Source of the DNA: Octopus vulgaris
Lineage: Eukaryota
NCBI GenBank assembly: GCA_951406725.2
Contig: OX597835.1
Coordinates: 45,694,001 to 45,758,000, forward strand
Length of the DNA stretch: 64,000 nucleotides
Direction: 5' to 3'
Under the pieces are notes generated by a model. That model saw only the letters and a list, made by a program, of their open reading frames with translations, had not been told where the DNA came from and ran no database searches. The position numbers were made by a program, and so were the translations under genes. Within the stretch, counting starts at the first letter, position 1. Every line of letters begins with the position of its first letter. Shown here piece by piece: positions 25,977 through 61,217 of this stretch.

Positions 25977-26727
25977 GTCTCCACTCAGAAAAAGTCAGGT
26001 CGGCTGGATCCTATAGAAGAAGACACTTGCCCAAGTTGCCGCGTGGTGAGACTGAAACCGGATCATCTTATCACGCAGCCAATCTTGCAAGCATCAGTAC
26101 ACTATGCAACAATTTACAAACGAGGAATCATGTATTTAGTGGACATTCAAACTGCTAGAAATATCAAACTTTTCCTCACGAAAAACATACATGGTATAAA
26201 GTAGTCAGATATTTTTTTGCAAACCTAATAATCACAACATATCATTCCTACCTAATGCAGCCAGAGATAAATTTTATCTGAATTTCATGTCTGGTGAGAG
26301 AATAACAAAATGTATTTGTATTTGTTTACATTTTCAATGCATGGCTTTCAATTTAATAGAGTAAAATTATTTTTTATAGTTTATATACATTTCTAATACT
26401 ATATAGTACCATAAACGCGGCTGGTTATTGCATTTCAACTCAATAGTTATTGCACAATGCTAACGTATTTTTCTTTATGTCTCATAGAAATATTTATAGC
26501 TCTTCTTTTTTTCTCGGTCTGAATCAGTATGTTGTAACCATGATGTCGCGCCACCTTCGACGATATTTTGAGATAATACCAAACTAAATGCTGATCTTTA
26601 TTCTGTTAATCTCTAAATATCGAATCTCCAGCTGGTTACATTCTTTTTTGATTTAACTTTAAAAAAAATGTCATTCAGCATGCTATCCACGCGTAATATT
26701 ATATCAATATATATATGTGTGTGTGTA

Positions 26728-26767
<40 letters not shown>

Positions 26768-26781
26768 CCCGTCCGTATGTA

Positions 26782-26837
<56 letters not shown>

Positions 26838-27377
26838 TACGTACGTTTGTATGTATGCATGCATGTTCTTCTTTGAATTTTATTTAAGCTGTTCTGAAGA
26901 GAATTCCCGGTGTTTGCAAATATGTGGTTGACTTGATGTGTTCGTTGCGCAGTCGATTCAAACACCAAAGTATGGACATCTACTCATCTAAAAATTCACA
27001 AAGGAAGAATCTTTGAAATTTTTTACAAATATTCACTCTGCCTCTAATAGAATGGATTGGGAGAATCCGCTTCAGTTTCTTTTGCTGTTTCTTCGAAAAA
27101 CGCGTATTTCTAGTTTTTTAAAATATGATAATATATAGAAATGAGAATTTAAAGTCAAGGTACAAGTTCTGTAATTTCCGTATTAATTCACCGTGCGGAA
27201 AACAAATGTAATGCACCGTCTGTTCCACAGAACAATATCAGATCTATTGTTCTCCAACTCTGAACATATTTACTGTTGAGCACTTGTTGTCTGAGTAACA
27301 CAATCTGACATTCAAAGGCTGTTTGGATTGATATAATGCCTTTACTGCCATCATTTCTAACATAAATTCTATCAGTG

Positions 27378-27825
27378 AGTATGTATGTATGTATGTGTAA
27401 ATGTGTCTGTATGTGTGTAGGTAGGTAGGTAGGTAGATAGGAATGTAGGTACGTAGGTATGTACGTATGTATGTATGTAGGCAGGTAGGTAGGTAGGTAC
27501 GTATTTATGTATGTATGTATGTATGTATGTGTAAATGTGTCTGTATGTGTGTAGGTAGGTAGGTAGGTAGATAGGAATGTAGGTACGTAGGTATGTACGT
27601 ATGTATGTAGGCAGGTAGGTAGGTAGGTACGTATTTATGTATGTATGTATGTATGTATGTGTAAATGTGTCTGTATGTGTGTAGGTAGGTAGGTAGGTAG
27701 ATAGGAATGTAGGTACGTAGGTATGTACGTATGTATGTAGGCAGGTAGGTAGGTAGGTACGTATTTATGTATGTATGTATGTATGTATGTATGTAGGTAG
27801 GTAGGTAGATAGGTAGGTAGGTATA
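27378..27825. repeat. Higher-order tandem repeat (about 130-bp unit, about 3 copies) built from TATG/TAGG microsatellites
   Basis: The marker gtaaatgtgtctgtatgtgtgtagg...gataggaatgtaggtacgtagg...ggcagg...gtacgtattt recurs at ~27397, 27531 and 27661. Confidence 0.9.
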
Positions 27826-30228
27826 TAGGTCACAACCGTTCATAAAAGTTCTGTTTAACAAATTCAACTCTCCCAGCCCTGAGCCATTTTAGCAGCGTTA
27901 ACCTATGAAAAATATGAGGTGCTACTATGAAGGACTTTTAGCAAAATTTTTGCACAGATGAAAAGGCAAGATATTTGTTTCGATCGCACTTTTAACTCCG
28001 AGAATTCTTTCGGTTCCGATATGTAGAATACTTACTATGTAAATTGTTAATATTTTATATACTTTGCTTTAAAAGAAAAAATCTGGCAACTTTTCTTTAA
28101 AAGAAAATAATCTGGCAACTTTTCTTTCATACAGAAGTTGTGATTCATAATTATTCCATTCTACAAATTCGGAGACTGTTCTATTTGGGTTTCGTAAAAC
28201 ATACACACACTTAGAAAAAGGTCTTACGTAGAATTGCAGGCCTAAATTGTACAAGGGCAGAAATGTTATTCATCCGAAAGATCATCGGGGTGCGTAGCTC
28301 AGAAAGAAGGAAAGTCTAACCAGATCGAGTCCCTACTTCTCCGTATTGAGTGGTCAGAGATCCTGTATTAGGGTCTCGTGGTTAGAATGAAGCACGAAAA
28401 ATCTCAAGTGAGACCCTTGAAACCGAGTACCTGATAGAAGACCTAGATTAGTAGACCAAGATGGAGTTGGTTGGTAAATCTGAAGAGAAGTGTAATGACG
28501 GTTGCATATAAGAAGACTCAAACGGAGGAGGTATCTGGACCTCAGTCACCTCAATCATAGTTTCCTGAGAACTCAACCATCAACAATCAGTTAGGAATGA
28601 TCGGTGAGGAAAAAGGATGGAAATGGATCGTTGTATCAAACTAGTATTTTGCAGTGAAAGTGCACGCTTAAGAAAAATGCTGCACTATTTTACATAACGA
28701 ACCTATAACAAATATTTATCTGAGAAACTTTTACCAACATTTATCACAGTGTTTGTGAATGTTATGTAGAATAGTTCTTGCTTCTCTATCATGAACCACA
28801 ATGAAATAAGTTACAAAATAAGTTTCATAACCTATTATCCTCCACCTTGAAAAGACGTGATTCTGTGCAAAATTTCATTTACCGCTGAGCAAAACTGTGG
28901 CATACAACATACGACATTCATCCATTCATTTATGGAATGCAAAAGCCGTGAAGTTTCCTCAGTAGTTAAGCTATTGGTTTGAAGCATTCATTGCCAATAA
29001 TGAATTAATGAATGATTATGTGCGTTCTGTTGTTTCTGAAAGGGTGCGCTAAAGATACGTATACATAATGACCAATAAGTTATGTTTATATATGTGTACC
29101 TCTGTACGTTTATGTATTTGTGATCGTGTTAGTACCACGCTACGTCTGTAAGTCATTATCCGTTTGTAGGTAGTACACATATAACATGTTGGGGTGAATT
29201 ATTCCTAACAAATAACGATTGGTTGTGTGTCTTTGTGTGTTTCTGAAAGCGTATCCTGGGGTTAAATGAGTATTATGGCTAATAATAGATATTTCTATCT
29301 GTGTAACTCTATTTGTATACGCATGTGTGCGGCGGGTACGTCGTCTGTAAGTCTTTGTTTGTCCTTTGTCTTTCCGTTTGTTCATGTAATAATACTGCTT
29401 TCATGGTTCAAAGTATGGAAACAGATCTAACTCATCTTTGAAAAGGAGTTGGCATGTTATCTTTCAACATATCTATATCTATATTCACAAAGTCACGTTC
29501 ATCGCGTAGAAAATGGCAGTTTAAAGATGTATGTGAGTTCTTAGCACATTCTTTGAATGCAACATTTGTTAACTTCGAAGATTTAGTATTCATAAATTTT
29601 CCAAAGAGTTACGTATTCTTTGTGCCATGAGAAAAGAAACTGTTTATGCTATTTCTTAAATCAGAAACGTTTATAACAACGGCATCGCAAGCAGTAGTAT
29701 CTCTACTACTGCCACAAAGACCACTGCACGTACTAGCACCAACTATAAAATCCTATAAAAACAGAAGCACTCGACCACCCGTCAAGTTCTGAAACGATAC
29801 GAAAGCATATTGAGATTTCCAAATGTGATGTCAAGAGATCTCTTCGGTATGGAGCAGAATGACTTAGTTTAAAAGGGTCATGAAAGGACAATGGATGCAC
29901 GCATATATAATATACATACATACATGCACACGCACACATACACACTCTCGCACACACACACACACACGTACACACATATATATACATATACATATATATA
30001 CATATATAATACATATATACATATATAATTTTTTTTATAAATGAATTTCTTGTGATTGATAGCATGAACTATCTTTTTTTATATATAACTTTTTTTGATA
30101 AGGTTCATTTCAGGAACTGAAACATGTTATAATGTATATATAAAAATTAAAAATTGTATAATATAGCAGCATTTTCGAACTTCATTTTTTACAAATATAT
30201 ATATACATATACATACATACATACACAT

Positions 30229-30293
<65 letters not shown>

Positions 30294-30649
30294 CATATAT
30301 ATATGTACTTGTGTATGTAAATCTTTTTCATGTGTGTATTGAATAAATTGAATAAGGCTTTGTATAACATAAGTTAGCGAGAGAAAGAATGACATTAGTA
30401 AACTTTTAGAAATGAAATAGTAGACACGTTTCAGGATTTGGCTAAGCAGTTATGTATTCACACATCTGGCCATCGCACTGAGAGCAATTATTCAGAGGCA
30501 AAACTGGAAACGTGAATATTTCGAAATAGACACGCCAGTGAAATGATATACATGATGACACTCTCAGGAAACACAATTGTATTTTATTGCGTTCCAATTC
30601 TAAAACAAACTGGCCAAAAATTATTATAATATATTGCACATTTAGGAAA

Positions 30650-30653
30650 TCTG

Positions 30654-30703
<50 letters not shown>

Positions 30704-30705
30704 CA

Positions 30706-30736
<31 letters not shown>

Positions 30737-30793
30737 ATCTATATATCTATCTATCTTTCTATATCTATCTATCTATCTATCTATTTATCTATC
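30650..30793. repeat. (TCTA)n array, 5' flank of the Tx1 LINE
   Basis: Direct inspection. Confidence 0.95.
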
Positions 30794-32266
30794 GTATTGA
30801 CTCTTGAGCCACTACTGCGGAAGCTGGCGACTCTAAGGGGCATCCCGCGAGAATTGGGATGCGGGACGAGCGTGTCTGCATACGCGGACGACGTCACCGT
30901 CATAGTGTCTAGCCACGAGCACATCGAGCTGGTCGGTGAGACACTGAAAAACTACGAAGCGGTGACAGGAGCGAAAATCGACCGGGAAAAGTCAGTGGGC
31001 TTGCGACTAGGCACCTGGAGAAGCAAGCCCATGCCGTCCACCAGCGCCTCCGTCGTGGGACGCTGGACCGACGGCCCGGTTGAGTTGCTCGGGGTCTGGT
31101 TTGGTCCGGACCTCCAAGTGGAGAAGAACTGGAACGAGATAACGAGTAGGGTGGTCACTCTCGCCCGGCAATGGGCCGAGAGGAAACTGTCCCTAAAAGG
31201 TCGAGCGGAGGTGGCGAACACGTACATCGCGTCCGTCATCTACTACCGCCTGACCGTCGTACCTTGTCCCGACCCTACCATCACCAAACTACAACGCATC
31301 CTCTTTCGCTTCTTGTGGAAAGGATGCGTCCCGATGGTCAGGCGATCCATTTGCTGTCAACACCCGTTAAAAGGAGGGCTGGGCATGCCGTGGTTGATGA
31401 TGCGCAGACACGCGCTGAGACTGCGACATCTCTGGCTCTATGTAGACGACGGTGAACAGGTGTGGTCGCCGTTTGTGAGGCACGCTTTCCCGCAGCTCGT
31501 CTCCATGACCGAACTGCAGTCGTGGATCAAAAAGAGGCCGAGGAAGGGCGAATGGCACCGCGAGTGTCGCGTTGCTCTCAAGCAACTCTGCCGTCCTGGG
31601 TCGACCTTAAGTGACTTCAACACAACCAAAGCATTCTATAGGGGTTTAGTGGAGGGGAGGTACGACGACGAGCTCGGGGCGAACCTGGACGTCGACGAGG
31701 AGTACCTGACCCGCCTGTTCAGGACGACTTTCGGGCCAGGGCCCATGGACAACTTCCAGAGATCCCTGGCCTGGCAGTGCTACCGAGAAGCGCTACCCGT
31801 TCGGGATAAGCTCTACAGACACGGCTCGAGAAACACGGGGCCGACCTGCCCGAGATGCGGTCAGAGCGACGAAACCGTTCTGCACGCACTCGTTCAGTGT
31901 CCAACAATTTCCGACCTGTGGGCTTATGTCGAACAACTGCTGTCACGTGTGGGACGAGTCGGTTTATCAGCTGAGTCTATCGTCAATATTGTCACGCCTC
32001 CTTCCTTCAAACGGGAAGGAAGAGCTATTTTCATCATCCTTGTGGCTATGGCGAAAGAATGTATCTGGTGGACGCGTCTGAAAGGATTGGAGACAAACAC
32101 TTTCCTCTCTGGTCAATCTCTCATCAACTTCTTCAAGTACCACTTGAAAAGGAAAGTGAGAGTAGAGAGGCAAGTTTTGTCTAGCGAATGTTTTAAAAAA
32201 AGATGGGTGAATGTAGCAAGAATGGCACGTATGAATGACGAAGCCACCTTGAGCATAGTCCTATGA
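30794..32266 (+). CDS. Tx1/L1-type ORF2 fragment: RT C-terminal domains and C-terminal zinc finger (no start codon; 5'-truncated)
   Basis: 490 uninterrupted codons: VLTLEPLLR, SAYADDVTV, GAKIDREKS, LLGVWFG, W..RKLSLKGRA.V.N, GGLGMP, CPRCGQSDETVLHALVQC. Confidence 0.9.
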   Translation, partial: VLTLEPLLRKLATLRGIPRELGCGTSVSAYADDVTVIVSSHEHIELVGETLKNYEAVTGAKIDREKSVGLRLGTWRSKPMPSTSASVVGRWTDGPVELLGVWFGPDLQVEKNWNEITSRVVTLARQWAERKLSLKGRAEVANTYIASVIYYRLTVVPCPDPTITKLQRILFRFLWKGCVPMVRRSICCQHPLKGGLGMPWLMMRRHALRLRHLWLYVDDGEQVWSPFVRHAFPQLVSMTELQSWIKKRPRKGEWHRECRVALKQLCRPGSTLSDFNTTKAFYRGLVEGRYDDELGANLDVDEEYLTRLFRTTFGPGPMDNFQRSLAWQCYREALPVRDKLYRHGSRNTGPTCPRCGQSDETVLHALVQCPTISDLWAYVEQLLSRVGRVGLSAESIVNIVTPPSFKREGRAIFIILVAMAKECIWWTRLKGLETNTFLSGQSLINFFKYHLKRKVRVERQVLSSECFKKRWVNVARMARMNDEATLSIVL

Positions 32267-32560
32267 ACCCAGAAATCGAAAACAGAGAGTTGCTTATTTG
32301 CAAAAAAAAAAAAAAAAAAAAAGAAATATAAAATGTGACTTCATTGACCGAGGTTACCGTGGTCTTTTCCGTAGGCTTTTCTTTCCACGGGTAAACCTCA
32401 CCTGTCCTCCCCTTTACACTTCATATTGACATTTCTGTGATAACGATCCCTATTGATCAATTTTTTTTTTTTTTTTTTTTTTCCTCTCCCCCTTTTTTTA
32501 ACCCCCCTTTTTTTGTCCTCCTTCTCTCCTTTTACGATCCCTTTTGATCGAAACTCCCCC

Positions 32561-32595
<35 letters not shown>

Positions 32596-32666
32596 ATTCA
32601 AAAGAAAAGCTCTACCTTGTAATTTGTTCTATCTGTGTGCAGCCCTGTGTGGCTAATAAAGAAACA
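30794..32666 (+). mobile_element. 5'-truncated Tx1/L1-clade non-LTR retrotransposon
   Basis: GC-rich open RT fragment followed by a pyrimidine-rich 3' UTR ending ccctgtgtggctaataaagaaaca; (TCTA)n on both sides. Confidence 0.92.
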
Positions 32667-32714
<48 letters not shown>

Positions 32715-32716
32715 CA

Positions 32717-32747
<31 letters not shown>

Positions 32748-32756
32748 ATCTATCTA

Positions 32757-32812
<56 letters not shown>

Positions 32813-32814
32813 CA

Positions 32815-32845
<31 letters not shown>

Positions 32846-32858
32846 ATCTATATATCTA

Positions 32859-32944
<86 letters not shown>
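32667..32944. repeat. (TCTA)n array between the two LINE copies
   Basis: Direct inspection. Confidence 0.95.
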
Positions 32945-32946
<2 letters not shown>

Positions 32947-33512
32947 GTCTAGCGAATGTTTTAAAAAAAGATGGGTGAATGTAGCAAGGATGGCACGTAT
33001 GAATGACGAAGCCACCTTGAGCATAATCCTATGAACCCAGAAATTGAAAACAGAGGGTTACCCACTTGCAAACAAATGTGGTAACATATAACAATATTGA
33101 CCAAGGTTACCGTGGTCTTTTTCGTAGGCTTTTCTTCCCACGGATAAACCTTACTTGCTTTCCCCTTTACACCATACATCATAACACTGTGATACACGAT
33201 CCCTATTGATCGTTTTTTTTCCTCTTCCCCTTTTTTCCCCTTTTTTCTTCTTTTTTCATTTCTCTTTTCCTTTGTTCCTTTTCCTTTTCTTTTTTTTATT
33301 TTTCTTTTTCTTTTTCTTTTCTTTCTTTCTTTATTTATTTTGTTCTTTTCTTCCCTTTTACGATCCCTCTTGATCGAAAACCTACGCCACCCCTTTTTGT
33401 TTTTTTTTTTTTTGTTTTTTTTTGTTTTTTGTTTTTCTCATCCCCCAAAAGAAAAGCTCTACCTTGTAACTTGTCCCATCTGTGTGCAGCCCTGTGTGGC
33501 CAATAAAGAAAC

Positions 33513-33513
<1 letters not shown>
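32945..33513 (+). mobile_element. Second, more truncated copy of the same Tx1-like LINE (last ~90 nt of ORF plus 3' UTR)
   Basis: ttgtctagcgaatgttttaaaaaaagatggg... matches 32177 onward; ends ccctgtgtggccaataaagaaact followed by (TCTA)n. Confidence 0.92.
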
Positions 33514-33566
<53 letters not shown>

Positions 33567-33659
33567 GCCTGTCTGCCTGTCTGTTATATAAATATATATA
33601 TATATATATATATAAATTTTTAAATATAAATATATAGATAAATTTAAAAAATATCCAGA

Positions 33660-34190
33660 AAAATGTCCAGAACCTGGAGGAGCATGGCATCGGCATTGTT
33701 TTAAGCTGTGCTGAAGAGCAATGGTTACACCAGAACTTTAGCACAGATAGTAAGAAAGAAGCAGGAATTTATACGCTCCTATGCTCTCATACGATCCCAT
33801 AACAGCATTCTTGGTGCCATTTTTGATCATGAACGAAGCAAAGATGACAAGGATGGAGGCAGGGATGCAGATGAAAGATGTCACCCCTACTTTGTAGACA
33901 CTCAAGAAAACAGAGAAGAAGATTCAAGTGAGATACCCTTCCGGAAAGTAAACCCAAGTGCAGTTGCCCCTACCAGCATCAAAACGAAAATCCAAGAAAG
34001 AATTAAAAGAAGGAAAAACTAAAACAAAAACAAAAGATGAAACGGCCAGGAAAAGAAGCAAGCCTCACTATCTATATAACAAAATGGATAAAAAGAGACA
34101 GCACACACGAATGTGCAAATTCTACCTGAAATGTGTCTGCTGGCATTGGAGAGGTAGACGCAGGCTGCCGTTTTGCACACTAAAGACTCC
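33660..34190 (+). pseudogene. Possible piggyBac transposase C-terminal remnant
   Basis: RKRSKPHYLYNKMDKKRQHTRMCKFYLKCVCWH loosely fits the piggyBac Cys-rich tail (RKRC..C...DRK....C..C.K.VC..H); heavily decayed. Confidence 0.3.
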
Positions 34191-34227
34191 ACCACATAAA
34201 TATGAAACAGGGTGGAAACCACCTACC

Positions 34228-34463
34228 AAACCGGGCGTTGTGAGTGATTATTGAGCGAAAACACCTAAGGCTCCACGAAGCTCCGACAAAAAGTGGTGGC
34301 GATCCCTGCTGTACTCTTTCGCCACAACTTTCTCTCACTCTTTCTTCTGTTGGCCTGCTCGCTTAGCCAGCGGGGCGGCGTCGTTTGAAGGATAAAACCA
34401 TGCGAAGTGCATTGTGACCAGCGATGAGTAGCAACATCTGATAGCCTGATCGGTCACGGTGAT
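34228..34463 (+). mobile_element. SINE family 2, headless copy with an alternative 3' tail
   Basis: accgggcgttgtgagtg...ctgtactctttcgccacaactttctctcactct matches 38139-38250, then continues with an unrelated tail. Confidence 0.8.
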
Positions 34464-34568
34464 ATATATATATATATATATATATGCATTTTACCAGTAG
34501 CCAGCGTGAGTAAAACTTCTTAGACTGCAAGTCTTATTATATTATGTGTGTATAAGAATTATACAGTG

Positions 34569-34678
<110 letters not shown>

Positions 34679-35394
34679 GTACACACATACACATATATAC
34701 ACATACATATCTATGTATGTATATATGCATATATATTTACATATATATATATCGAGCTATACACCGCCTTATCAGTGTATCTATCCATCTTAAAGAGTAT
34801 CAGAAAACGTTATCACCACAGTTAGACTTCAATACATTATTTTACAAACATGTCTGCCACCGTTAAACTTAACCTAGATTTAACATTAACTTTCTGTTTA
34901 CAAGCCAGTTCCAAACCATTAAATATATTTCATTAAAACTTTAGTTTTTGTTTTCTTTTTTCTTTAGATTCACATTTATTAGTAATTTTTCTTGTTTTTG
35001 TTATTTTCCTAATCTCACCTCATGCACCTCTACACACCTATTATTCCATCTCCCACCGACCCTCCTTTCTCTCATTCTCTTCTCATTCTCCCCCTCACTG
35101 TCCTCGTTCTCTTTTTATCTCACACGCTACGCGCCTCTCTATTCCCCCTCCTGCCTACTTCTGTGCTTATTTTCACTCTCCCCTCCATCGCTTTTTCTCT
35201 CTCTTCTCTCTCTTCCTTATCTCTCTCCATTCTCTCTTCTCTCTCTCTCCATTCTCTCTCTCTCTCTCTGTATTTTTCTCTCTCCAGTCCCCTTTTTCCC
35301 GACACATACTCTTTCTCTCATTTATTTCTTCACACCCACGGAGTTTGATAATTTTTTCTCCATATAATTCTCCCTTTCTCTTTAGTTTTCATCT

Positions 35395-35675
35395 CTCTCT
35401 TTATCTATCTCTCTCATTCACTCTCTTTCTCTCTCTCATTCACTCTCTTTCTCTCTCTCATTCACTCTCTTTCTCTCTCTCATTCACTCTCTTTCTCTCT
35501 CTCATTCACTCTCTTTCTCTCTCTCATTCACTCTCTTTATATCTCTCATTCACTCTCTTTCTCTCTCTCATTCACTCTCTTTCTTTCTCTCATTCACTCT
35601 CTTTTTCTCTCTTTATCACTCTTTATATCTCTCATTCACTCTCTTTCTCTCTCTCATTCACTCTCTTTCTCTCTC
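35395..35675. repeat. CT-rich minisatellite (about 22-26-bp unit ctctctcattcactctctttctct)
   Basis: About 10 recurrences of cattcactctc. Confidence 0.9.
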
Positions 35676-36452
35676 CCTCCACACATTCTTCCTTACTCTC
35701 CCTATGATACTCTTCTCTATTGTTCTTCTCTCTTTGTCTGCTCTCCCTCTGCTTGCTTTATTTCCCTCACTATCTCTATCTTTCTCACCGAACTCTCTCT
35801 TTATAGTTTTCCTTCTCCTTCTCTCTCTCTTTAGTTCTCTCTCTTTCTCTCTGTCATACTCTCTATTTCATACATTCATTCCCCCCTCCCTTCCACACTC
35901 ACTCTCAGACTCTCTTTACTTTTCTCTAATCTCTCTCCGTTTCTCATTCTCTATAACTTATCCTCTTTCTTTCTCTCCTGCATAATGTATATTCTTTTTC
36001 CTCTGAATTATTCTACGACTTAACACTCGTCTCACTACTTGCTCCTTCGAACCCCGCATCACTTCCAGACAAAGCGATTGAGACTGAAGCAGAAATAGAC
36101 AGACGTAAAGACAGAAAGGTAGAGAACGATACAGAGAAAGAGGGGGGGGATATACAGGAAAACATATACAAAGAATGGTAAATGGGTGGACGAAATCATG
36201 ATTAAACTAGTGACTGGAACCAAATTACTGTTTTCCTATTTTGATATATTTTATATTTTTTAGTGGGGATGTATATGGGCGGAGTATGTTTCACTTCGTC
36301 TATTTTTTCAACCTGCTGTTAAAGAGGGTATTAGCGACACGACTGGTGTTATATTTTGAAGGTGATGGCTTTAATATTGTTGTTGTCAGGGCAGTAACGT
36401 TCGGCTGACAAGCAAAATATCTTACAATCATATATATTTATATATAGGCACA

Positions 36453-36527
<75 letters not shown>

Positions 36528-36941
36528 CTAATGTAGGATAAAATTTTTTCGAAAAAAAATTTTATCAATGGCCAGCATATTAAAAAATACATTTAAAGGT
36601 TAAATAATGAACAACTTATAAATAAGGGAGTATTTCTATTTTAGATTTATTTGGGGTACTTAGTTGTTGTGCTCATGACTTAGTGTTTGCTTCTCCCATG
36701 GGTATGAGTAAGTATCTCATTTACTTCTTTGCCACAAGTATCACTGACGAAGGGAGGGTTCTTTTTTAACTAAACCTGAAATCGGTGCGATGTAGTAATA
36801 ATGGAATTTTTAGAGATTTCTGTCGACCTTCTTCGAGTAGCGTGCGTACTGGGGAAAAAATTATACGGTAAATGGACAATATGACCAATTTTCGGCATAT
36901 TTGGCATTAGGAATTTTTTCGTTTGCCCTTATTTATAAGTT

Positions 36942-36998
<57 letters not shown>

Positions 36999-37020
36999 CA
37001 TATACATATATATATATATA

Positions 37021-37416
37021 CTAGCAGTATCGGCCGGCGTTGCTCGGGTTTGTAAGGGAAATAACTATATAAGCATTTTTAGAGAGTTATAGCCAAAAAA
37101 TAGCCAAAAAATGCATTAAAAATGGAAAAAAAATGATGGTAATTTTTTTTCAAAATCGTTGACTCATCGTAGAAATTTTTTAGAGAGTTACTTCCCTTAT
37201 ATAGTAGCGAAAAAAATGCATTAAAATGTAAAAAAATGATGGTAATTTTTTTTTTAATCGTAGACTCATCATAGACGCGCACTAATACCCAGAAGGGCTC
37301 GATATGAATCACGACTATAAGATACCTGGTTTTGGTTAAACTGCACCGCAAAATGTGGGAGTAGTTAGGAATCTAAATCGTAGGAGACAGACACACAACT
37401 TGACTTTTATATATAA
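37021..37416 (-). mobile_element. Non-autonomous Helitron
   Basis: Minus-strand 3' end cccgagcaacgccggccgatactgCTAG|t (GC-rich subterminal hairpin plus CTAG); 5' end ..tatatataaaagtcaagttgtgtgtctgtc; internal ~100-bp duplication. Confidence 0.7.
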
Positions 37417-37504
37417 ATATATATATGTAAGTGTTCTTCAAAGGTGTACTCCAGCATGGTTGCAGTCTAATGACTGAAACAAACAACATATAAAAGTGGG
37501 TGAC

Positions 37505-37672
37505 AAAGAAAGACATACACATATACGACGGGCTTCTTTCATTTTCCTTCTTATAAATTTTTGGTGTGCTCCAGGCTATAGTAGAAGACACTCACCCAAA
37601 ATGCTGTGCCGTAGCACTGAACCCAAAACCATGTGATTGGGAAGCAAGCTTCTTACCGCACACAGAGGCCTG
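37505..37672 (-). mobile_element. SINE family 1 head module (diverged)
   Basis: atacgacgggcttctttc...gctatagtagaagacact...accatgtgattgggaagcaagcttcttacc. Confidence 0.75.
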
Positions 37673-37908
37673 TACTTTACACATATATCAAATCTTTTAT
37701 CCATAGTTTTTACCTCTTTTATTCATTGCGCTTCGGCAATGAAAGGTTTAGCCGAAAAATCGACACCGTACTTATTTGTCAAGTCAGGTGTTCACTCTAT
37801 CAGATCTTTTGCCGAACTGCTAGGTTACGAAGTCGTAAAGAGACCAATGCTAGATGTGAAGCGATGGTAGGCGGATGAGTGCAGACATAAAAAAACGGAC
37901 ACACACAG

Positions 37909-37941
<33 letters not shown>

Positions 37942-38068
37942 TAGATACATATATACACAAGTATATTACTAAATATATGTGTGTAATGTATTCATTTTTA
38001 TATAATCATACATACGCACCCCCCCACACATATAGAAATATATATGTTTGTGTATATGCTCAGGTGTG

Positions 38069-38453
38069 GTGGAGGCGCAATGGCCCAGTGGTTAGGGCAG
38101 CGGACTCGCGGTCATAGGATCGCGGTTTCGATTCCCAGACCGGGCGCTGTGAGTGTTTATTGAGAGAAAACACCTAAAACTCCACGAGGCTCCAGCAGGG
38201 GATGGTGGTGACCCCTGTTGTACTCTTTCACCACAACTTTCTCTCACTCTTACTTCCTGTTTCTGTTCTACCTGTATTTCAAAGGGCCGGCCTTGTCACT
38301 CTGTGTCACGCTGAATATCCCCGAGAACTACGTTAAGGGTACACGTGTCTGTGGAGTGCTCAGCCACTTACACGTTAATTTCACGAGCAGGCTGTTCCGT
38401 TGATCGGATCAACCGGAACCCTCGTCGTCGTAACCGACGGAGTGCTTCCACCA
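38069..38453 (+). mobile_element. tRNA-derived SINE family 2, full length with 13-bp target-site duplication
   Basis: Head gaggcgcaatggcccagtggttagggcagcggactcgcggtcataggatcgcggtttcgattccc (A/B boxes); TSD atgctcaggtgtg at 38056-38068 and 38454-38466. Confidence 0.92.
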
Positions 38454-38732
38454 ATGCTCAGGTGTGCGCGTGTGTGTGTGTGCGTGTGCACAAAGAGTGA
38501 AAGAGAGAGAGGCCTGTCGACCTGTGCCTGACGGTCATGATCGTGGCCCGTCGCGCTTAATGTGTTAAAGGCGAAGTCGACCTCACAACGTAAAAATGGC
38601 TGAAATAACGATAAACATATCTCCCGGCCTGACAAAGATTCTGCCGGTTAACTGCCTTAAGAATTGTAGTAATAACAATGCATATAAGCTTCAAGTATAG
38701 CCCTGGTCATTCTATCATTATTTACATTTATA

Positions 38733-38940
38733 AGGTGGAGAGCTATCAGAATCATTCCCTCGCCGAACAAATTGCTTAGCAGCAGTTCCCTCGTCTTTAC
38801 GATCTAAGTTCAAATTTCGCCGAGTCCAATATTCGCTTTCATCCTTTAGGGGGTCGATAAATGATCCTATAATCAAGAGCTGAGATGGATGAAATCGACT
38901 TAATCCCTCTCCCAAAGTTTCTATCATAGAAAGGATTAAG
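38733..38940 (+). mobile_element. SINE family 3 (diverged)
   Basis: aggtggagagctatcagaatc...gttcaaatttcgccgag...ctttcatcctttagggggtcgataaa...aatcgactt; homologous to the reverse complement of 41850-42023. Confidence 0.7.
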
Positions 38941-40147
38941 TATATTTTGTTTTAAATGCTTTCCTTCATAAATAATTGTCTGCCTTCGTCGAAGTCATAC
39001 TCTTCATAGCAGTATATTTCATACCTAATTATGTTAATGCATTTTAAGGCCATAAATATCAAGAGGATAATTATAAATACAGTGAATATAAATGAACTGG
39101 TAAGTTTTATTTATGCATATAAAACTCAAGTTGAAAATTTATATTGCTTTAAATTACAATTACATCGTAAATCTTAAACATTTTGAACACAAATGCTCTT
39201 TAAAATACTTCATTCAGAAATATTGTAATTATAGAGAATTACGCTGGTAAATATATATCGTATAGCATATATTGAAAAAAAATTATGGTGTAATATATTT
39301 TGTATTACACTAATTATATTAGAGTAATTGCAATGCTTCATCGATAATGATGCTCAGAAATCCATAATTATTTTATCCTCTAAGTTGTAAAATCAAAATA
39401 TATAATAACGGAGAAACTTTTCAATTTCTTATTTCAGCTAGTAAATAAAGAACAGGAACAAGGCTCGAATTTCGCCCATCATACGCGGAGAAAGCTGAAG
39501 GTTTAGAGATTAAAAGGGGGTCTTTAAAGCACCTATATTCGGGTATAAACCGCATAAAGTTCGTAGTTGCTTTTGTGTTTCGTTTATATTAGTTCAGGAG
39601 TTGTCATGCAAAACTTGCATTTCTTTCAAAATTATTTTATCATACAGGTGACATGCAGCGCACTCTGGATCGGTAATGCAAAGAGAAATAACAAACTCTT
39701 CACAGCGTTGAGGCAGGATTCGAAATTTGAATGTAAAATCTAGGAATTGTAAGTGTTCACTCATATAAATATAGTCATTGAGGTTAATATAACACGAATA
39801 TCATTGAATGCTAATATAATTGCTTTCGTGCAATGTCAGTGTTAGTTTGAAACAGTGTATTCGCAGAATCGCTGGACCACGGGAAAAATATTCTTGCGGA
39901 ATTTATTTCAACCCTTAATATTATGATTTCCAATCCTACAGTGATCAGTTTGCCTTTCGTTCTTCCACTTTCTATAAAATAAAGTCCTAGGCAAGCACTG
40001 GAGACGATGGGTTCGGCTAACGTTGTCTGCTCAAAACTGCTGCCCTCATCCCTAAAACAGTGTATTGTAACGTCAAACCGTCACTGTCATCACATTACCG
40101 TTATGACAATCGTATTCCACTGGTAATGTTAATGTAACAATAGTTTA

Positions 40148-40340
40148 TTACCTGCGCCAAGGAAGGAGGTTATGTTTTCATTGGTTTGTTCGTCTGTCTG
40201 TCTGTGTGCCAGATAACTAAAAACGTTGTGCGCAGTATTTGATGAAACTTGCAGAAAAAATTTGTAATGACACAGGAAACAGATGATGAAATTTTGTGAA
40301 GGATTTTTCATTTGTTATATTTACTTTACAGGAAGCATTA
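40148..40340 (+). mobile_element. Helentron/HINE-like element 5' fragment
   Basis: ttacctgcgccaagg(aagg)aggttatgttttc..gtctgtctgtctg.. start, shared with 40780-40910. Confidence 0.5.
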
Positions 40341-40779
40341 CAATGTTACGTTCTTTGATTATCTCCCTTGAAAACACATCGTTTCCACGTAACCTATGGT
40401 GGCGTTGCTGTTTAGAGACAGTGTTGATGATGACGATGGTCGAGATAAGTATGGGAGGAGGATAAAATAGTATCGGAGGTTATAATGGTGACATGAACGG
40501 TGTGATGCCTGATGCTGAGGTGATGGTGGTAATAGTGGTGTTGATGATAGTATTAGTTGTGTGATGGTGGTATTGCAGTGGTTATACTGGTTGTGGTGGT
40601 GAAAGTGACTGTCAAGGCAACCGTCATGATAACATTGATGGCGGTGTATGTGGTTGAAGAGGAAGCAATGAAAATGCTGATGATAATGATGTTGGCGGTT
40701 GTGAACTGCGTCAGATGATTCCTGTTTTTTAAAGGGTTTTTTTTTTCTTAAAATCATATGGCTGTGTTATTATTTTTTG

Positions 40780-40910
40780 TACCCCCACCAAGGAGGTTAT
40801 GTTTTTGCCTGCTTTGGTTTGGGAAATTGGGCAATTTTTAGCATGCAGGTATATGGGTGGAAATGAGCCTTCTTGGCGGAGGTGTGCACTCTTCGAGTGC
40901 TTTTCGAGTT
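40780..40910 (+). mobile_element. Short Helentron/HINE-like element
   Basis: Subterminal inverted repeats acccccaccaag / cttggcggaggt, 3' hairpin gcactc-ttc-gagtgc, T-rich flanks. Confidence 0.6.
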
Positions 40911-41689
40911 ATAATAGCATTCATCGCCATTGTAAAGATTGTGATATTAAAAACACCAATATTATTGGTTATGTTAGAGATTTTATAATTGTAATCACAG
41001 CTTTGCTCAAATGTCCTTATAACTGTAACGTCGGTGTTATTGAAATGATAAAATTAATGATATTATGGCGATATTGCAGTGTCAGACTTATTCGAATGAC
41101 AGTATTATTGTAAGGGCAGTCATTGTTATTGTAATGACTGCGTCTCTAACATCAGCGTTATTGAAATAAAGTTATTTGTAATGATAAAGCTACTGTAACG
41201 TCATAGTGTAAGCATAGAATTCTCGTAATGCTCGCCAATGTCACGTTAATAATTGTGTTGCTGTCATGTTAGCATTATCAAAATGTCAAAGTTATTATAA
41301 TGTAGGTACTATTGTAATGTCAAGCGGTTATTATTATTAAAAAAAGCAGCTTTATAATGATAAGAGATGTAGCAATGATTGTGTTGCTACAATGGCGACG
41401 CCGTTGCAGGAGAACTATCGAGACATCGACAGCGTTACTGCAATGTCGATGTTGTTCTAATCATGGTGTAATTGAACGACTCTATTTTGAATTCTTGGTG
41501 TGAAATTATGTGGTGAAACAGTTTATGTTTAACCGAATGATTACTCAAGCAATCGATTAGTTAATTGGTTAAATAATTAACCAATTGACGAATAATGATA
41601 ATAATAAAGAAATATAACTGAACCGGTGTAATGGTCCTCCTGTGATAAAACAAAATTTAATGATTGTTTTTGCTGAAAGGCTAGTTTCA

Positions 41690-42023
41690 TTTCTTCTGTG
41701 TCGGTGCTTAATTTATCGACCCCGAAAGGATGAAAGGCTAAGTCGACCTCGGCGGAATTTGAACTCAGAACGTAACGGCAGACGAAATACGTATTTCTTT
41801 ATTACCCACAAGGTGCTAAACACAGAGGGGACAAACAAGGACAGACATAGGTATTAAGTCGATTACATCGACCCCAGTGCGTAACTGGTACTTAATTTAT
41901 CGACCCCGAAAGGATGAAAGGCAAAGTCGACCTCGGCGGAATTGGAACTCAGAACGTAACGGCAGACTAAATACGGCTACGCATTTCGCCCGGCGTGCTA
42001 AAGTTTCTGCCAGCTTGCCGCCT
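41690..42023 (-). mobile_element. SINE family 3, young copy with Tx1-LINE-like 3' tail, followed in tandem by a partial second unit
   Basis: Head rc aaggcggcaagctggcagaa..gagttccaattccgccgaggtcgac; core gcctttcatcctttcggggtcgataaattaagtaccag; tail ..ccttgtgggtaataaagaaat; ~41703-41790 duplicates ~41887-41974. Confidence 0.85.
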
Positions 42024-44426
42024 TTCTGAAAGATATATTGTTATGATAAATAATGCAGTGTTAGTAGTATGGTAATGACTGTATTGTTGTCATCTTAGTT
42101 TTATTCTAGTGCCAGTGTTATTGCAGCGATATCATTATTTTAATACCGGTCAGTCTTATTGTAAAGAGTATAAGATTACAATGGCAATCGTATTGCAATA
42201 TATCTGTTATCGCATTGATAGTCCTCTTGTAATGACAATCTTATTGAAATGAAGTTGTTTATTAAAAGACCACACTGATGTCCATTAAAATAAAACTATA
42301 TTGCTTGCGTCTCTTGTATAAAGGACGACTGACATCTTTATTGCTTGCTTTCCAAGATGACATTGCGTGCAAAGCCTTCGTAAGTTCTTCAAATGGTTAA
42401 CGTTGACGTGGTTGAGGTTCTTGAAAGAGTTCAAGATCAGTTCTAATACAGTCATAGATAAGGGGAAAAGTCCAGAGGTAAAACATCCGAAGGAAAAGAA
42501 GAGTCGATTGGACTTGTTATGTGTGGGACCTACGTTAGGGTTGCATAATGCAATTGCCGGAGAAGAAAGGATGCGTGAGTCATATAGGCCTCAGCGGAGG
42601 TCTTGCGAGACCATCAAGGTCGCGATAACAAGTGCTGATGATAAACAGAGCGTATCTACGTGGTAGCGGTTCTCATCACTGGGGAGTTTCATGAAACCCA
42701 CCAGTTATAAGTACTCTTTAGACTGCTTCCCTTTAAGGAGCTCTGTCGAGAATTAAAAGGAATCATTTGTCTCTATCTGCCAAAATCAAGACTGGAATCC
42801 ATCAGCAAGATAGAGATTCTACGAAACTTCAGCCGGTGGAATCAACGGGAAGCTTCATTGATGTACATTTTCATTTCTTTTCCTTTCTCCTTATTTATTA
42901 TCTTTTTTTTCTGCAAGATCATTAGAGAAGATGATCAGGATTTCACTCTCAGTATTTGAATGTTTAAGTCGTCTAGGCACTTGCTTTTGTCGTTACATGA
43001 TTCACAAATGTTTTAATGTAGAATGATTCCCAGCATATACGTAACTCTCACTTCGTAGATGGAAGAACAGCTCTTTTAACGCTTGTGTTTTTCTCTACCT
43101 CGGGTCCGTTGAGCAAATTAGATGGAAACCTCAATAACGATACACTCCGCACGTTTATAAACCAAATGAATGGGGAAAGTGTTTATTGTAGGATTTGGTT
43201 TATAAACACAGCAGTGGTGACGCGAAGAGGACTGGTGTCTGAATCGAGTAATTCTCCAGGAAAACTTGGTTGTTATTTTCCATTCTGTTGATGTTTGGAT
43301 CGCGGTCGACTTTGAACAATGAAACCTGTGGCCGTAGAAGTGTCTGTCATGAACATTCTTCCGTATATCATCGATCACCATAACTAAAGTGCCATTCTTT
43401 ATTTCAAGAAAAGACGGATTGAATAGAGGAGGTTATAGCTCTTATTTCTAGCAGGTCTGACAAATATGTTACGCAGTCCCGTTGGGCTGACAGGCTCTTA
43501 TTTCTATTGTTCGTTTTTATTGCGTGTTGTTTTTTGATAGAAATTTAATACATATGATGGGAAATACTATTTTTTTTTATTCTCTTTGTTTCTCTTTCTG
43601 TAATTTATTCTTCATCTCGTGCTTAGTTTCATTATCACGGAAATAAAGGAGAAAATATTTCAGAATCTATTCATTTATTTATGCTAATGCTATTGCCATT
43701 ATTGTTGATGTTACTGTTGTTAAAGAGGCGTTAATTTCGTTTAACCCTGGGTCATCTGCAATAAGTATATGGTCGATAGCATAATGAAGTCGCCTTTACT
43801 GCTGCATTATTTTATCTCGGGAGCAAAGTAAATGGTTAAGTGGTCACGTGATGCCTTTCGTTTTAATTTCGTTACGATGGATGTTTTTGTTTCTGTTTAA
43901 CTTTTGGCAACCCACATTGAAAGAACTTTCGTGAAAGACGTTCCAATCAGGACCATCCTTTTATGGCAAGGTTAAAAGCATTTTTCTGTCTATAAGTTGT
44001 TTGAGTGGAGTAAGAGCAAGATTTGGCTGCTATATTTAAAGAATTGAAGAACAACGACGCAAATCCTCCTCAATCGGCTTTCTCATTTCTTGTGGTTTGG
44101 CGCCAAGTCATCCACGATTTAGCAGCACGACGATGAAAATGTTCTCTTGGTGACCATTCCAACTATTTTATATGGACAACCAGTCAACAAAATACTTCAT
44201 TGAATGTAATTTATGTTGTAAGGCGTTAAGGTGATTTTCAAGTGGGAATTGGTTGCTTTGTATAAAATAAGTGGATGATCATATAGTGGCTCCCTCTCTA
44301 GTTCACTGTCGAATGTGAAATGTAATATTAATGTTGGTAGAGTTTTACATTCAGATCAGTACTCATTGATCAGTCTTCCCATCAAACACATTGGACCCGC
44401 AAACATATTGCCATTTATATCTACTT

Positions 44427-60365: not shown

Positions 60366-61217
60366 CCTATATACAAGTATACACACGTTGGTGTGCGTCG
60401 ATGTGCTTGCGCGTGTTCGTTTATTTGCGTGTGGTTTTATAGGAAACCATCAATCTCCGATGCTACAGAAAATGACAGGTGGTGCATAGCTAAATGGCCA
60501 GCTATGATTGATCAATGCTAACCCGGGGTTAAATGACAACAACAAAAACAACAACAACAGCAAAAAAACATTTATTTTTTATGCTTATTTTTTGTTTGTT
60601 AATCGATGAAAGAATGCAATATAGCAGATAAAAGAGATAATGAATATTTGAGGAGTAGGTACGGCAGATTTTTCACGGAATAAAATAATTACGAATTTCC
60701 CGAACTTGACTTCACACGACCTCACATCAAAGCAACAGATGATGCTTATATACCTAGGGAATATCGAATATACACCTATCACACATAAAGCAATCACAAA
60801 CACACAAGGAAAAGCTGTAAAACATATTAAGTTTTGCCTTCTGGGAAAATAACAAAGGGCGGTATATCACAGGCTGTGTTGAATATTTAAGGCCGTTGAA
60901 TGAATGAGCTTCAACAAACAAAATAATAATAAATGTGAAAAAAGTTTTTAAAAAAAATGAAATAAAATAACAGGAATATTAGGAGAGAAAATAGAAAAAT
61001 GATGTCATTCTGACAAATCTATCCTGGGGAGTTGTCATTTGAATTTTCATTATAATATGTGGAAAATCTACCCGTGTGTAAATATCAAAATGTCACGCAT
61101 TATTGGATCGTAATTAAGAAAAATTAAAAAGTTAATAAATAAAGCATATTCCTACACGCATACAACACATCTTTTTATGTTGCTCGCAAATAATTACTGA
61201 TGTATGTAGCTATCCAA

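What the first reader, a model, noticed from the sequence alone, without database searches (positions are those of the whole stretch)
41793..41846. SINE whose 3' tail matches the 3' end of the Tx1 LINE in the same window
Seen: the SINE tail (rc) ccttgt---ttgtcccctctgtgtttagcacct-tgtgggtaataaagaaa aligns with the LINE end ccttgtaacttgtcccatctgtgtgcagc-cctgtgtggccaataaagaaa (33462-33511), about 41 of 51 columns identical by hand count, and both terminate at the same point. Other family 3 copies (38733, 48500, 61218) have different tails. Known: shared 3' ends mark SINE-LINE partnerships, and they are uncommon for L1/Tx1-clade partners. Inference: a Tx1-mobilised SINE subfamily, implying stringent 3'-end recognition by this Tx1 lineage.
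Basis: partly seen in the sequence, partly recalled or inferred. Interest (0 to 1): 0.8.

Follow-up and report, generated by a model that had tools for sequence, protein, structure and literature searches.

The report
Octopus SINE with Tx1-like LINE tail
A very abundant short jumping-DNA family in what is likely an octopus genome carries a 47-base piece that matches the very end of a LINE-1-type (likely Tx1) retrotransposon, so it likely borrowed that element's copying enzyme, a pairing seldom reported for this LINE group, although in many copies the piece likely runs on into a second repeat unit instead of ending the element.

Summary
The match is real: SINE 41840-41794 (minus strand) against LINE end 33462-33511 gives 39/50 columns (41/51 with looser gaps); 0 of 5000 shuffles score as well. 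It is not a one-copy accident: contigs of four public DNA runs pile up on the tail at 0.8-1.3 million times the depth of unique flank, which suggests at least 10^4 copies. The LINE is L1-superfamily; both copies sit in (TATC)n and lack poly(A), as expected of Tx1, but clade membership was not tested by a tree. Corrections: this SINE does not end at the tail but continues into an 89-bp second unit, and that junction looks family-wide (roughly half of the tails). No significant shared hairpin was found, and this SINE copy is not in the LINE's microsatellite. So a shared tail is shown, Tx1 mobilisation is likely, and stringent recognition is unproven. Shared SINE-LINE tails are textbook; the papers read list only three with L1-clade tails (maize, alga), and Tx1-mobilised SINEU has none. 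The scan noted a similar single-copy case in a protist; nothing on this sequence. New variant of a known kind.

The parts
41976..42025 (-). SINE unit 1, 5' head (tRNA-like; A-box-like motif near 42012-42006)
   Evidence: Contig pieces end at 42022-42025 and depth collapses beyond; motif scan. ARAGORN 0 tRNAs and Rfam 0 matches, so the tRNA origin is inferred from recalled box motifs only.
41857..41975 (-). SINE unit 1 body (B-box-like motif 41948-41939, then the central domain shared with the other copies in the window)
   Evidence: BLASTN hits to copies at 61216, 48634, 48428, 38732, 56911, 39921; other subfamilies leave the alignment at 41855-41857 (loose ends).
41841..41856 (-). Subfamily-specific linker, no match to the window's LINE ends
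   Evidence: Local alignments start at 41840.
41794..41840 (-). 47-nt segment matching the LINE 3' end, ending in a canonical poly(A) signal plus GAAA
   Evidence: 39/50 and 38/50 against the two LINE ends; 0 of 5000 shuffles; high-copy in 4 of 4 runs laid.
41703..41791 (-). SINE unit 2: head-less repeat of the body, period 184 bp, broken off before any tail
   Evidence: 85 of 89 identical to 41975-41887; junction covered at 23-31% of tail-interior depth in 4 of 4 runs.
30794..32664 (+). LINE copy 1, 5'-truncated: end of RT, zf-RVT, stop at 32266, T-rich 3' UTR, poly(A) signal, no poly(A)
   Evidence: Pfam RVT_1 and zf-RVT; relatives with EN-RT-zf; best solved relative human L1 ORF2p, E 1e-112 for the family profile.
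32946..33511 (+). LINE copy 2, 5'-truncated to the last 87 coding bases plus 3' UTR
   Evidence: 85/87 identical to copy 1 in the ORF end, 58/62 in the last 62 nt.
30649..30793 (+). (TATC)n array 5' of LINE copy 1
   Evidence: TRF
32667..32945 (+). (TATC)n array between the two LINE copies
   Evidence: TRF
33514..33566 (+). (TATC)n array 3' of LINE copy 2, same phase as after copy 1
   Evidence: TRF; junction print-out

Best explanation
This is one copy of a high-copy, likely tRNA-derived SINE subfamily whose last 47 bases match the 3' end of an L1-superfamily (likely Tx1) LINE; the SINE likely took this end from that LINE lineage by a template switch and was likely amplified by its reverse transcriptase, often as dimers or short tandem runs. 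Shown: the match, its restriction to one subfamily, its high copy number, the L1-superfamily protein, and the second unit in this copy. Inferred: that an older SINE swapped its usual tail for the LINE end (the other subfamilies diverge at 41855-41857); that the direction was LINE to SINE (the poly(A) signal is useful to a Pol II LINE, and 20-23% of SINE depth has lost it); that Pol III reads through both units (no run of four T between 42025 and 41703) so that a dimer is copied as one RNA and ends in the same tail; and that the true partner is this LINE family or one of its octopod sister families. How the enzyme recognises the tail (sequence, weak hairpin, or pairing of read-through RNA with the nicked target) is untested.
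For: Match and shuffles. 78-80% over 50 nt lies inside the 76-91% over 40-58 nt of 3'-terminal SINE-LINE matches in Table 1 of PMC5786205. Summed contig depth at 41828 is 0.81-1.26 million times unique flank in 4 of 4 runs; divided by 31 for word overlap this is 26,000-41,000 (the tool warns this is no copy number, so read it as an order of magnitude). Depth is level from body into tail (bins 41846-41867 and 41824-41845). The family's majority letter at 41814 (89-94% of depth) is the LINE's letter, raising identity from 39 to 40 of 50. 41802 variant that destroys AATAAA in 20-23% of depth. The two LINE copies keep 58/62 at the end against 146/202 and 119/239 columns in the rest of the UTR. LINE; both copies flanked on both sides by (TATC)n in one phase, without poly(A); microsatellite targeting is described for Tx1 families (PMC4494074 passage). 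Sister families at 62-82% identity, two named from Argonauta hians. Tail exchange is an established SINE habit (PMC4824008, PMC5786205 passages).
Against: This copy has no terminal tail: unit 2 breaks off at 41703 and no target-site duplication is evident. No free tail end appears among the 24 loose ends shown of 2420; the 5' end does not appear there either, so this is weak. The junction into unit 2 is common, so the tail might be internal in most copies. The SINE copy is not in (TATC)n. No fold beats shuffles (z -1.6, +1.1, -0.1); 0 of 10 consensus pairs show a compensatory change. 16 nt of the subfamily tail have no match in these LINE copies, and 20% divergence remains, so this exact family may not be the partner. 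Without the poly(A) decamer the match to copy 1 is marginal (217 of 5000). The two LINE copies are neighbours in one array, not independent.
Confidence: 0.6

Rival explanations
1. The LINE-like segment is a fossil inside a composite SINE: a chimeric master (unit 1 plus LINE end plus unit 2) was amplified by another LINE through a different terminal tail, so Tx1 gave the sequence once but did not do the mobilising.
For: Junction depth is 87-94% of the depth at 41802 and 23-31% of tail interior in 4 of 4 runs, whereas the free 5' end falls to about 2-4% of interior; no alternative letter at 41792-41797 among the 40 variant rows shown. This copy continues past the tail. No shared target, no significant hairpin.
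Against: Unit 2 carries the same subfamily letters as unit 1 (85/89), which fits a repeat of body plus the same tail. Depth at the copy-specific difference 41791 is 42-58% of that at 41814 (figures), which fits about half of the tails being followed by something else. No call links a unit 2 to the other tail.
Confidence: 0.2
2. The direction was the reverse: a relaxed L1/Tx1 element picked up the end of an abundant SINE as its new 3' end, and the SINE is mobilised by an unidentified LINE.
For: The SINE tail is far more abundant than needed for such a capture; a six-base motif at the start of the match also occurs in the other subfamilies' tail.
Against: The segment ends in a canonical poly(A) signal that both LINE copies keep and 20-23% of SINE depth has lost; the LINE copies stay conserved 12 nt upstream of the match.
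Confidence: 0.08
3. The 184-bp body-plus-tail unit multiplied mainly at the DNA level as a SINE-derived satellite, so the depth reflects tandem arrays at few loci and not retrotransposition.
For: Tandem unit in this copy; frequent junction.
Against: This copy is dispersed, with a head and unique flank shared by 3 of 4 runs laid (pieces 8, 16, 24); head depth is of the same order as tail depth.
Confidence: 0.07
4. Chance or convergence of two GT-rich stretches that both end in a poly(A) signal.
For: Short match; 217 of 5000 shuffles reach the score against LINE copy 1 once the decamer is removed.
Against: 0 of 5000 with the full tail, 2 of 5000 without the decamer against copy 2, clear gap to background; the match lies at the very end of a LINE, where SINE tails come from; the family majority is closer to the LINE than this copy.
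Confidence: 0.05

Closest known systems
SINEs with L1-clade tails: maize ZmSINE2/ZmSINE3 with LINE1-1_ZM, Chlamydomonas SINEX-3_CR with L1-1_CR (PMC3472496, PMC3747384; passages read)
   Same: tRNA-type SINE sharing a short 3' segment with an L1-superfamily LINE; read as a sign of stringent recognition.
   Different: Animal host; likely Tx1 branch; no poly(A) after the segment; no demonstrated hairpin or compensatory changes (they have them in maize); tail often followed by a second unit.
SINEU with Tx1-Mar in crocodilians (PMC4494074; abstract, passages and section 14 read)
   Same: SINE thought to be mobilised by a Tx1 LINE; tandem insertions occur.
   Different: SINEU has snRNA heads and poly(A) tails, the paper found no LINE sharing the SINEU-1 3' end, and the link rests on a shared target; here the link is a shared end and the target is not shared in the one copy seen.
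Microsatellite-targeting Tx1 families Kibi, Koshi and crocodilian (TTCC)n/(TTTC)n families (PMC4494074 passage)
   Same: L1-type ORF2, insertion in a simple repeat in fixed phase.
   Different: Target here is (TATC)n; only two neighbouring copies seen; no tree against Kibi or Koshi.
Octopus tRNA-derived CORE-SINEs OR1/OR2 (named in PMC4824008 and PMC4758252 passages; the 1994 paper itself not seen)
   Same: Abundant octopus tRNA-type SINE; tRNA-Core and tRNA-Deu SINEs dominate octopus SINEs (PMC8967140 passage).

Membership tests
SINE (tRNA-derived) | Short, non-coding, interspersed at high copy number | tested here: met
   234-bp unit; at least 7 related copies in the window; 222,120-521,868 contigs laid per run; translated frame finds no protein.
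SINE (tRNA-derived) | tRNA-derived head with Pol III A and B boxes | tested here: inconclusive
   Loose A- and B-box-like motifs (patterns recalled) at SINE positions 14 and 78; ARAGORN 0, Rfam 0.
SINE (tRNA-derived) | Target-site duplication and defined 3' end | tested here: not met
   In this copy unit 2 breaks off at 41703 and the flanks show no duplication; says nothing on other copies.
CORE-SINE (OR1/OR2) | Central 45-65-bp CORE domain | not testable with these tools
   No reference sequence obtained; resemblance is recalled only. Motif searches in the supplements of PMC4824008 (file 2; file 1 not searched) and PMC5786205 found no matching body.
L1 superfamily (L1 plus Tx1) LINE | ORF2 with AP endonuclease, RT and C-terminal zinc knuckle, closest to L1 | tested here: met
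   RVT_1 and zf-RVT in the window; EN-RT-zf in full-length relatives; family profile scores human L1 ORF2p 381 bits against 129 for R2.
Tx1 clade | Groups with Tx1L, Keno, Kibi, Koshi in an RT tree | not testable with these tools
   No named Tx1 reference available. Indirect: the profile scores several unnamed and one frog element higher (470-504 bits) than human L1 (381).
Tx1 clade | Target-sequence preference | tested here: inconclusive
   2 of 2 copies flanked on both sides by (TATC)n in one phase; perfect arrays cover 0.6% of the + strand; the copies are neighbours.
Stringent SINE-LINE pair | Shared 3' sequence | tested here: met
   39-40 of 50; 0 of 5000 shuffles.
Stringent SINE-LINE pair | Shared segment is the 3' terminus of the SINE | tested here: inconclusive
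   Not in this copy; family-wide junction into a second unit, perhaps half of the tails.
Stringent SINE-LINE pair | Conserved 3' stem-loop with compensatory changes | tested here: not met
   z-scores -1.6, +1.1, -0.1; consensus -3.3 kcal/mol, 0 of 10 pairs compensatory, only 3 sequences.
Stringent SINE-LINE pair | Tail needed for trans-mobilisation in an assay | not testable with these tools
   Needs a cell assay.

The most novel reading that the evidence does not exclude
One of the major octopus SINE subfamilies is a stringent, shared-tail partner of a microsatellite-targeting Tx1 lineage, the first such pair in animals among the papers read, and it is redirected from the microsatellite to a fixed base inside its own family because read-through RNA pairs with the nicked target; self-homing then builds the tandem runs. 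That would make RNA-target pairing, not the endonuclease alone, the source of Tx1 target choice, and would be directly testable by swapping the bases after the tail.
Probability: 0.2. Interest if true: 0.75.

Novelty: new variant of a known kind. Interest (0 to 1): 0.5.

Why it matters
L1-superfamily LINEs are usually taken to recognise only poly(A), and the survey read lists just three SINEs with L1-clade tails, all in plants or an alga. A high-copy animal SINE with a Tx1-like, non-poly(A) end would give an animal test case for whether sequence-specific RNA recognition is ancestral in this group, and would name the engine behind part of the octopus SINE expansion, where 1279 of 1317 SINE families are unclassified (PMC13282606 supplement).

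Tried and rejected
No whole genome is held, so no genome-wide alignment. Pattern scans for the tail or the SINE body found 0 loci in viral contigs, metagenome contigs and GTDB genomes. Searches for DNA around LINE relatives gave 1 irrelevant locus of 110 candidates (L001, 27% identity), 0 of 35 and 0 of 44, so conservation of the end among sister LINE families stayed untested. A translated non-coding frame across the tail junction found no protein. The protein atlas gave only generic RT clusters. PDB endonuclease chimeras did not separate Tx1 from L1. A link between ZCCHC3-type ORF1 domains and Tx1, recalled, found 0 papers and is not used. The guess that the body is a Meta-domain was dropped. 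The hairpin predicted for this copy (-10.1 kcal/mol) depends on a copy-specific base and drops to -6.8 with the family letter, so it is rejected as evidence. The idea of a single chimeric copy is rejected.

Full report
Observation. The minus strand at 41840-41794 aligns with 33462-33511 at 39 of 50 columns (E 2e-5 in the window), or 41 of 51 with cheaper gaps. A second LINE end at 32623-32664 matches at 33 of 42. No shuffle of 5000 reaches either score; with the poly(A)-signal decamer removed, 2 and 217 of 5000 do; among 3456 windows the best non-self hits are the LINE ends. The decamer occurs 7 times in the window, 3 of them in these ends.

Host. No genome is held. The closest named relatives of the LINE protein are from Argonauta hians (62-63%) and a short piece in an Octopus bimaculoides model, so an octopod host is inferred.

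The LINE. There are two 5'-truncated copies, 30794-32664 and 32946-33511. The first encodes the end of an RT and a zf-RVT knuckle; full-length relatives are about 1150 aa with EN-RT-zf. A profile of 17 sequences scores human L1 ORF2p at 381 bits and R2 at 129, and several non-mammalian elements at 470-504: L1 superfamily is met, Tx1 is likely but was not tested by a tree. Both copies end in the poly(A) signal plus GAAA, two bases, and then (TATC)n in the same phase, with no poly(A), and both have (TATC)n on the 5' side. Perfect arrays cover 0.6% of that strand, but the two copies are neighbours. Microsatellite targeting is described for Tx1 families (PMC4494074). The copies are 85/87 identical at the ORF end and 58/62 in the last 62 nt, against 146/202 and 119/239 columns in between: the end is conserved relative to the UTR, on two sequences. 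Sister families at 62-82% amino-acid identity exist.

The SINE. Unit 1 runs 42025-41792 with loose A- and B-box-like motifs (ARAGORN and Rfam find nothing). Directly after the tail a head-less second unit follows, 41791-41703, 85 of 89 identical to 41975-41887, which breaks off without a tail; no run of four T lies in either unit and no target-site duplication is evident.

Family-level evidence. Four of 24 listed runs (organism labels A-D) were laid on 41560-42200 at 80% likeness. All are contigs, and the tool warns that summed depth is no copy number and that some differences, joints and loose ends were not counted; it showed 40 of 127 variant rows, 15 of 1836 joints and 24 of 2420 loose ends. 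Depth inside the tail (41828) is 0.81-1.26 million times that of unique flank; divided by 31 for overlapping words this is 26,000-41,000. I read this as at least 10^4 copies. Depth is level from body to tail, and other subfamilies leave at 41855-41857 with the other tail. At 41814, 89-94% of depth has the letter found in the LINE, which lifts identity to 40 of 50; at 41802, 20-23% has lost the poly(A) signal. The single-copy explanation is refuted.

The tail is not simply the end. At 41791, one base past the tail, depth is 87-94% of that at 41802 and 23-31% of tail interior, while the free 5' end falls to about 2-4%. 90-95% of that depth shares one letter that differs from this copy, and no variant row appears at 41792-41797, although every row shown has a share of about 9-10% or more; if head-type contigs overhanging unit 2 made up that depth such rows would be expected (my inference on how rows are ranked). 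So the tail-to-unit-2 junction is a family trait. Comparing two copy-specific positions, depth at 41791 is 42-58% of that at 41814, which suggests about half of the tails run into this junction, as in dimers or short tandem runs; the range allowed is wide. What the last unit ends in could not be seen. No free tail end is among the loose ends shown, but neither is the 5' end.

Structure and target. None of the three ends folds better than its shuffles (z -1.6, +1.1, -0.1). A weak common hairpin can be drawn (-3.3 kcal/mol, 0 of 10 pairs compensatory), and the stronger fold of this copy rests on a copy-specific base. The SINE copy sits in AT-rich unique DNA, not in (TATC)n. Stringent recognition is therefore not shown; I put it near 0.4.

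Mechanism. Most likely (0.6) an older SINE exchanged its tail for the end of an L1/Tx1 element by template switching and was then copied by that lineage's RT, frequently as a read-through dimer or tandem run; the partner may be a sister family of the LINE in the window. Rivals: fossil internal segment of a composite moved by another LINE (0.2), capture of the SINE end by the LINE (0.08), DNA-level satellite growth (0.07), chance (0.05).

Literature. Ten searches returned no listing that describes an octopus SINE with an L1/Tx1 tail; the library lacks most subscription journals, and Repbase and Dfam could not be searched, so prior annotation there is not excluded. Seen: PMC3472496 and PMC3747384, passages (three SINEs with L1 tails among 58 pairs; all 5 Tx1 mentions of the latter lie outside its pair table, octopus 0); PMC4494074, abstract, passages, section 14; PMC5786205, abstract, passages, part 1 of 5, supplement search with Tx1 0 and octopus 0; PMC4824008, passages, section 10, supplement file 2 only, file 1 not searchable; PMC4758252, PMC5753468, PMC8967140, passages; PMC13282606, part 1 of 3 and its supplement. 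Ohshima and Okada 1994 (OR1, OR2, OK) was not seen; this family may be one of them.

Earlier scan notes. Nothing by sequence or place. By words: a single-copy protist SINE with an L1/Tx1-like tail, LINEs homing into SINEs, and a SINE concatemer; unchecked leads only.

Verdict. Real, family-wide, and a rare kind of pairing, but with the terminal position, the exact partner and stringency open. New variant of a known kind, interest 0.5.

Noticed in passing
window 30649-33566: Two 5'-truncated copies of one L1/Tx1-type LINE sit in tandem inside a (TATC)n array, same strand and phase, without poly(A): candidate (TATC)n-targeting Tx1 family.
   Followed up: partly
window 41703-41975: 184-bp period: the tail is joined to a head-less second unit at a junction that looks family-wide; possible dimeric SINE or self-targeted insertion.
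   Followed up: partly
window 32267-32602 and 33035-33449: The two LINE copies are 98% identical at the ORF end but much more diverged in the T-rich UTR, which carries a twice-repeated 17-nt motif in both copies (33196, 33360, 32534).
   Followed up: no
window 48634-48316: Two fragments of the other SINE subfamily lie head to tail about 110 bp apart; contig joints (42024 to 41855) also point to head-to-tail runs of that subfamily.
   Followed up: no
window 41626-41691: The 3' flank is thinly or not covered in 2 of 4 runs while the 5' flank is bridged in 3 of 4; the broken end of unit 2 may be a polymorphic deletion.
   Followed up: no
proteins P0130 and P0250: Close relatives of this LINE (about 65% identity) are filed under a bacterial name on a 1.8-kb contig; likely host DNA in a metagenome bin.
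   Followed up: no
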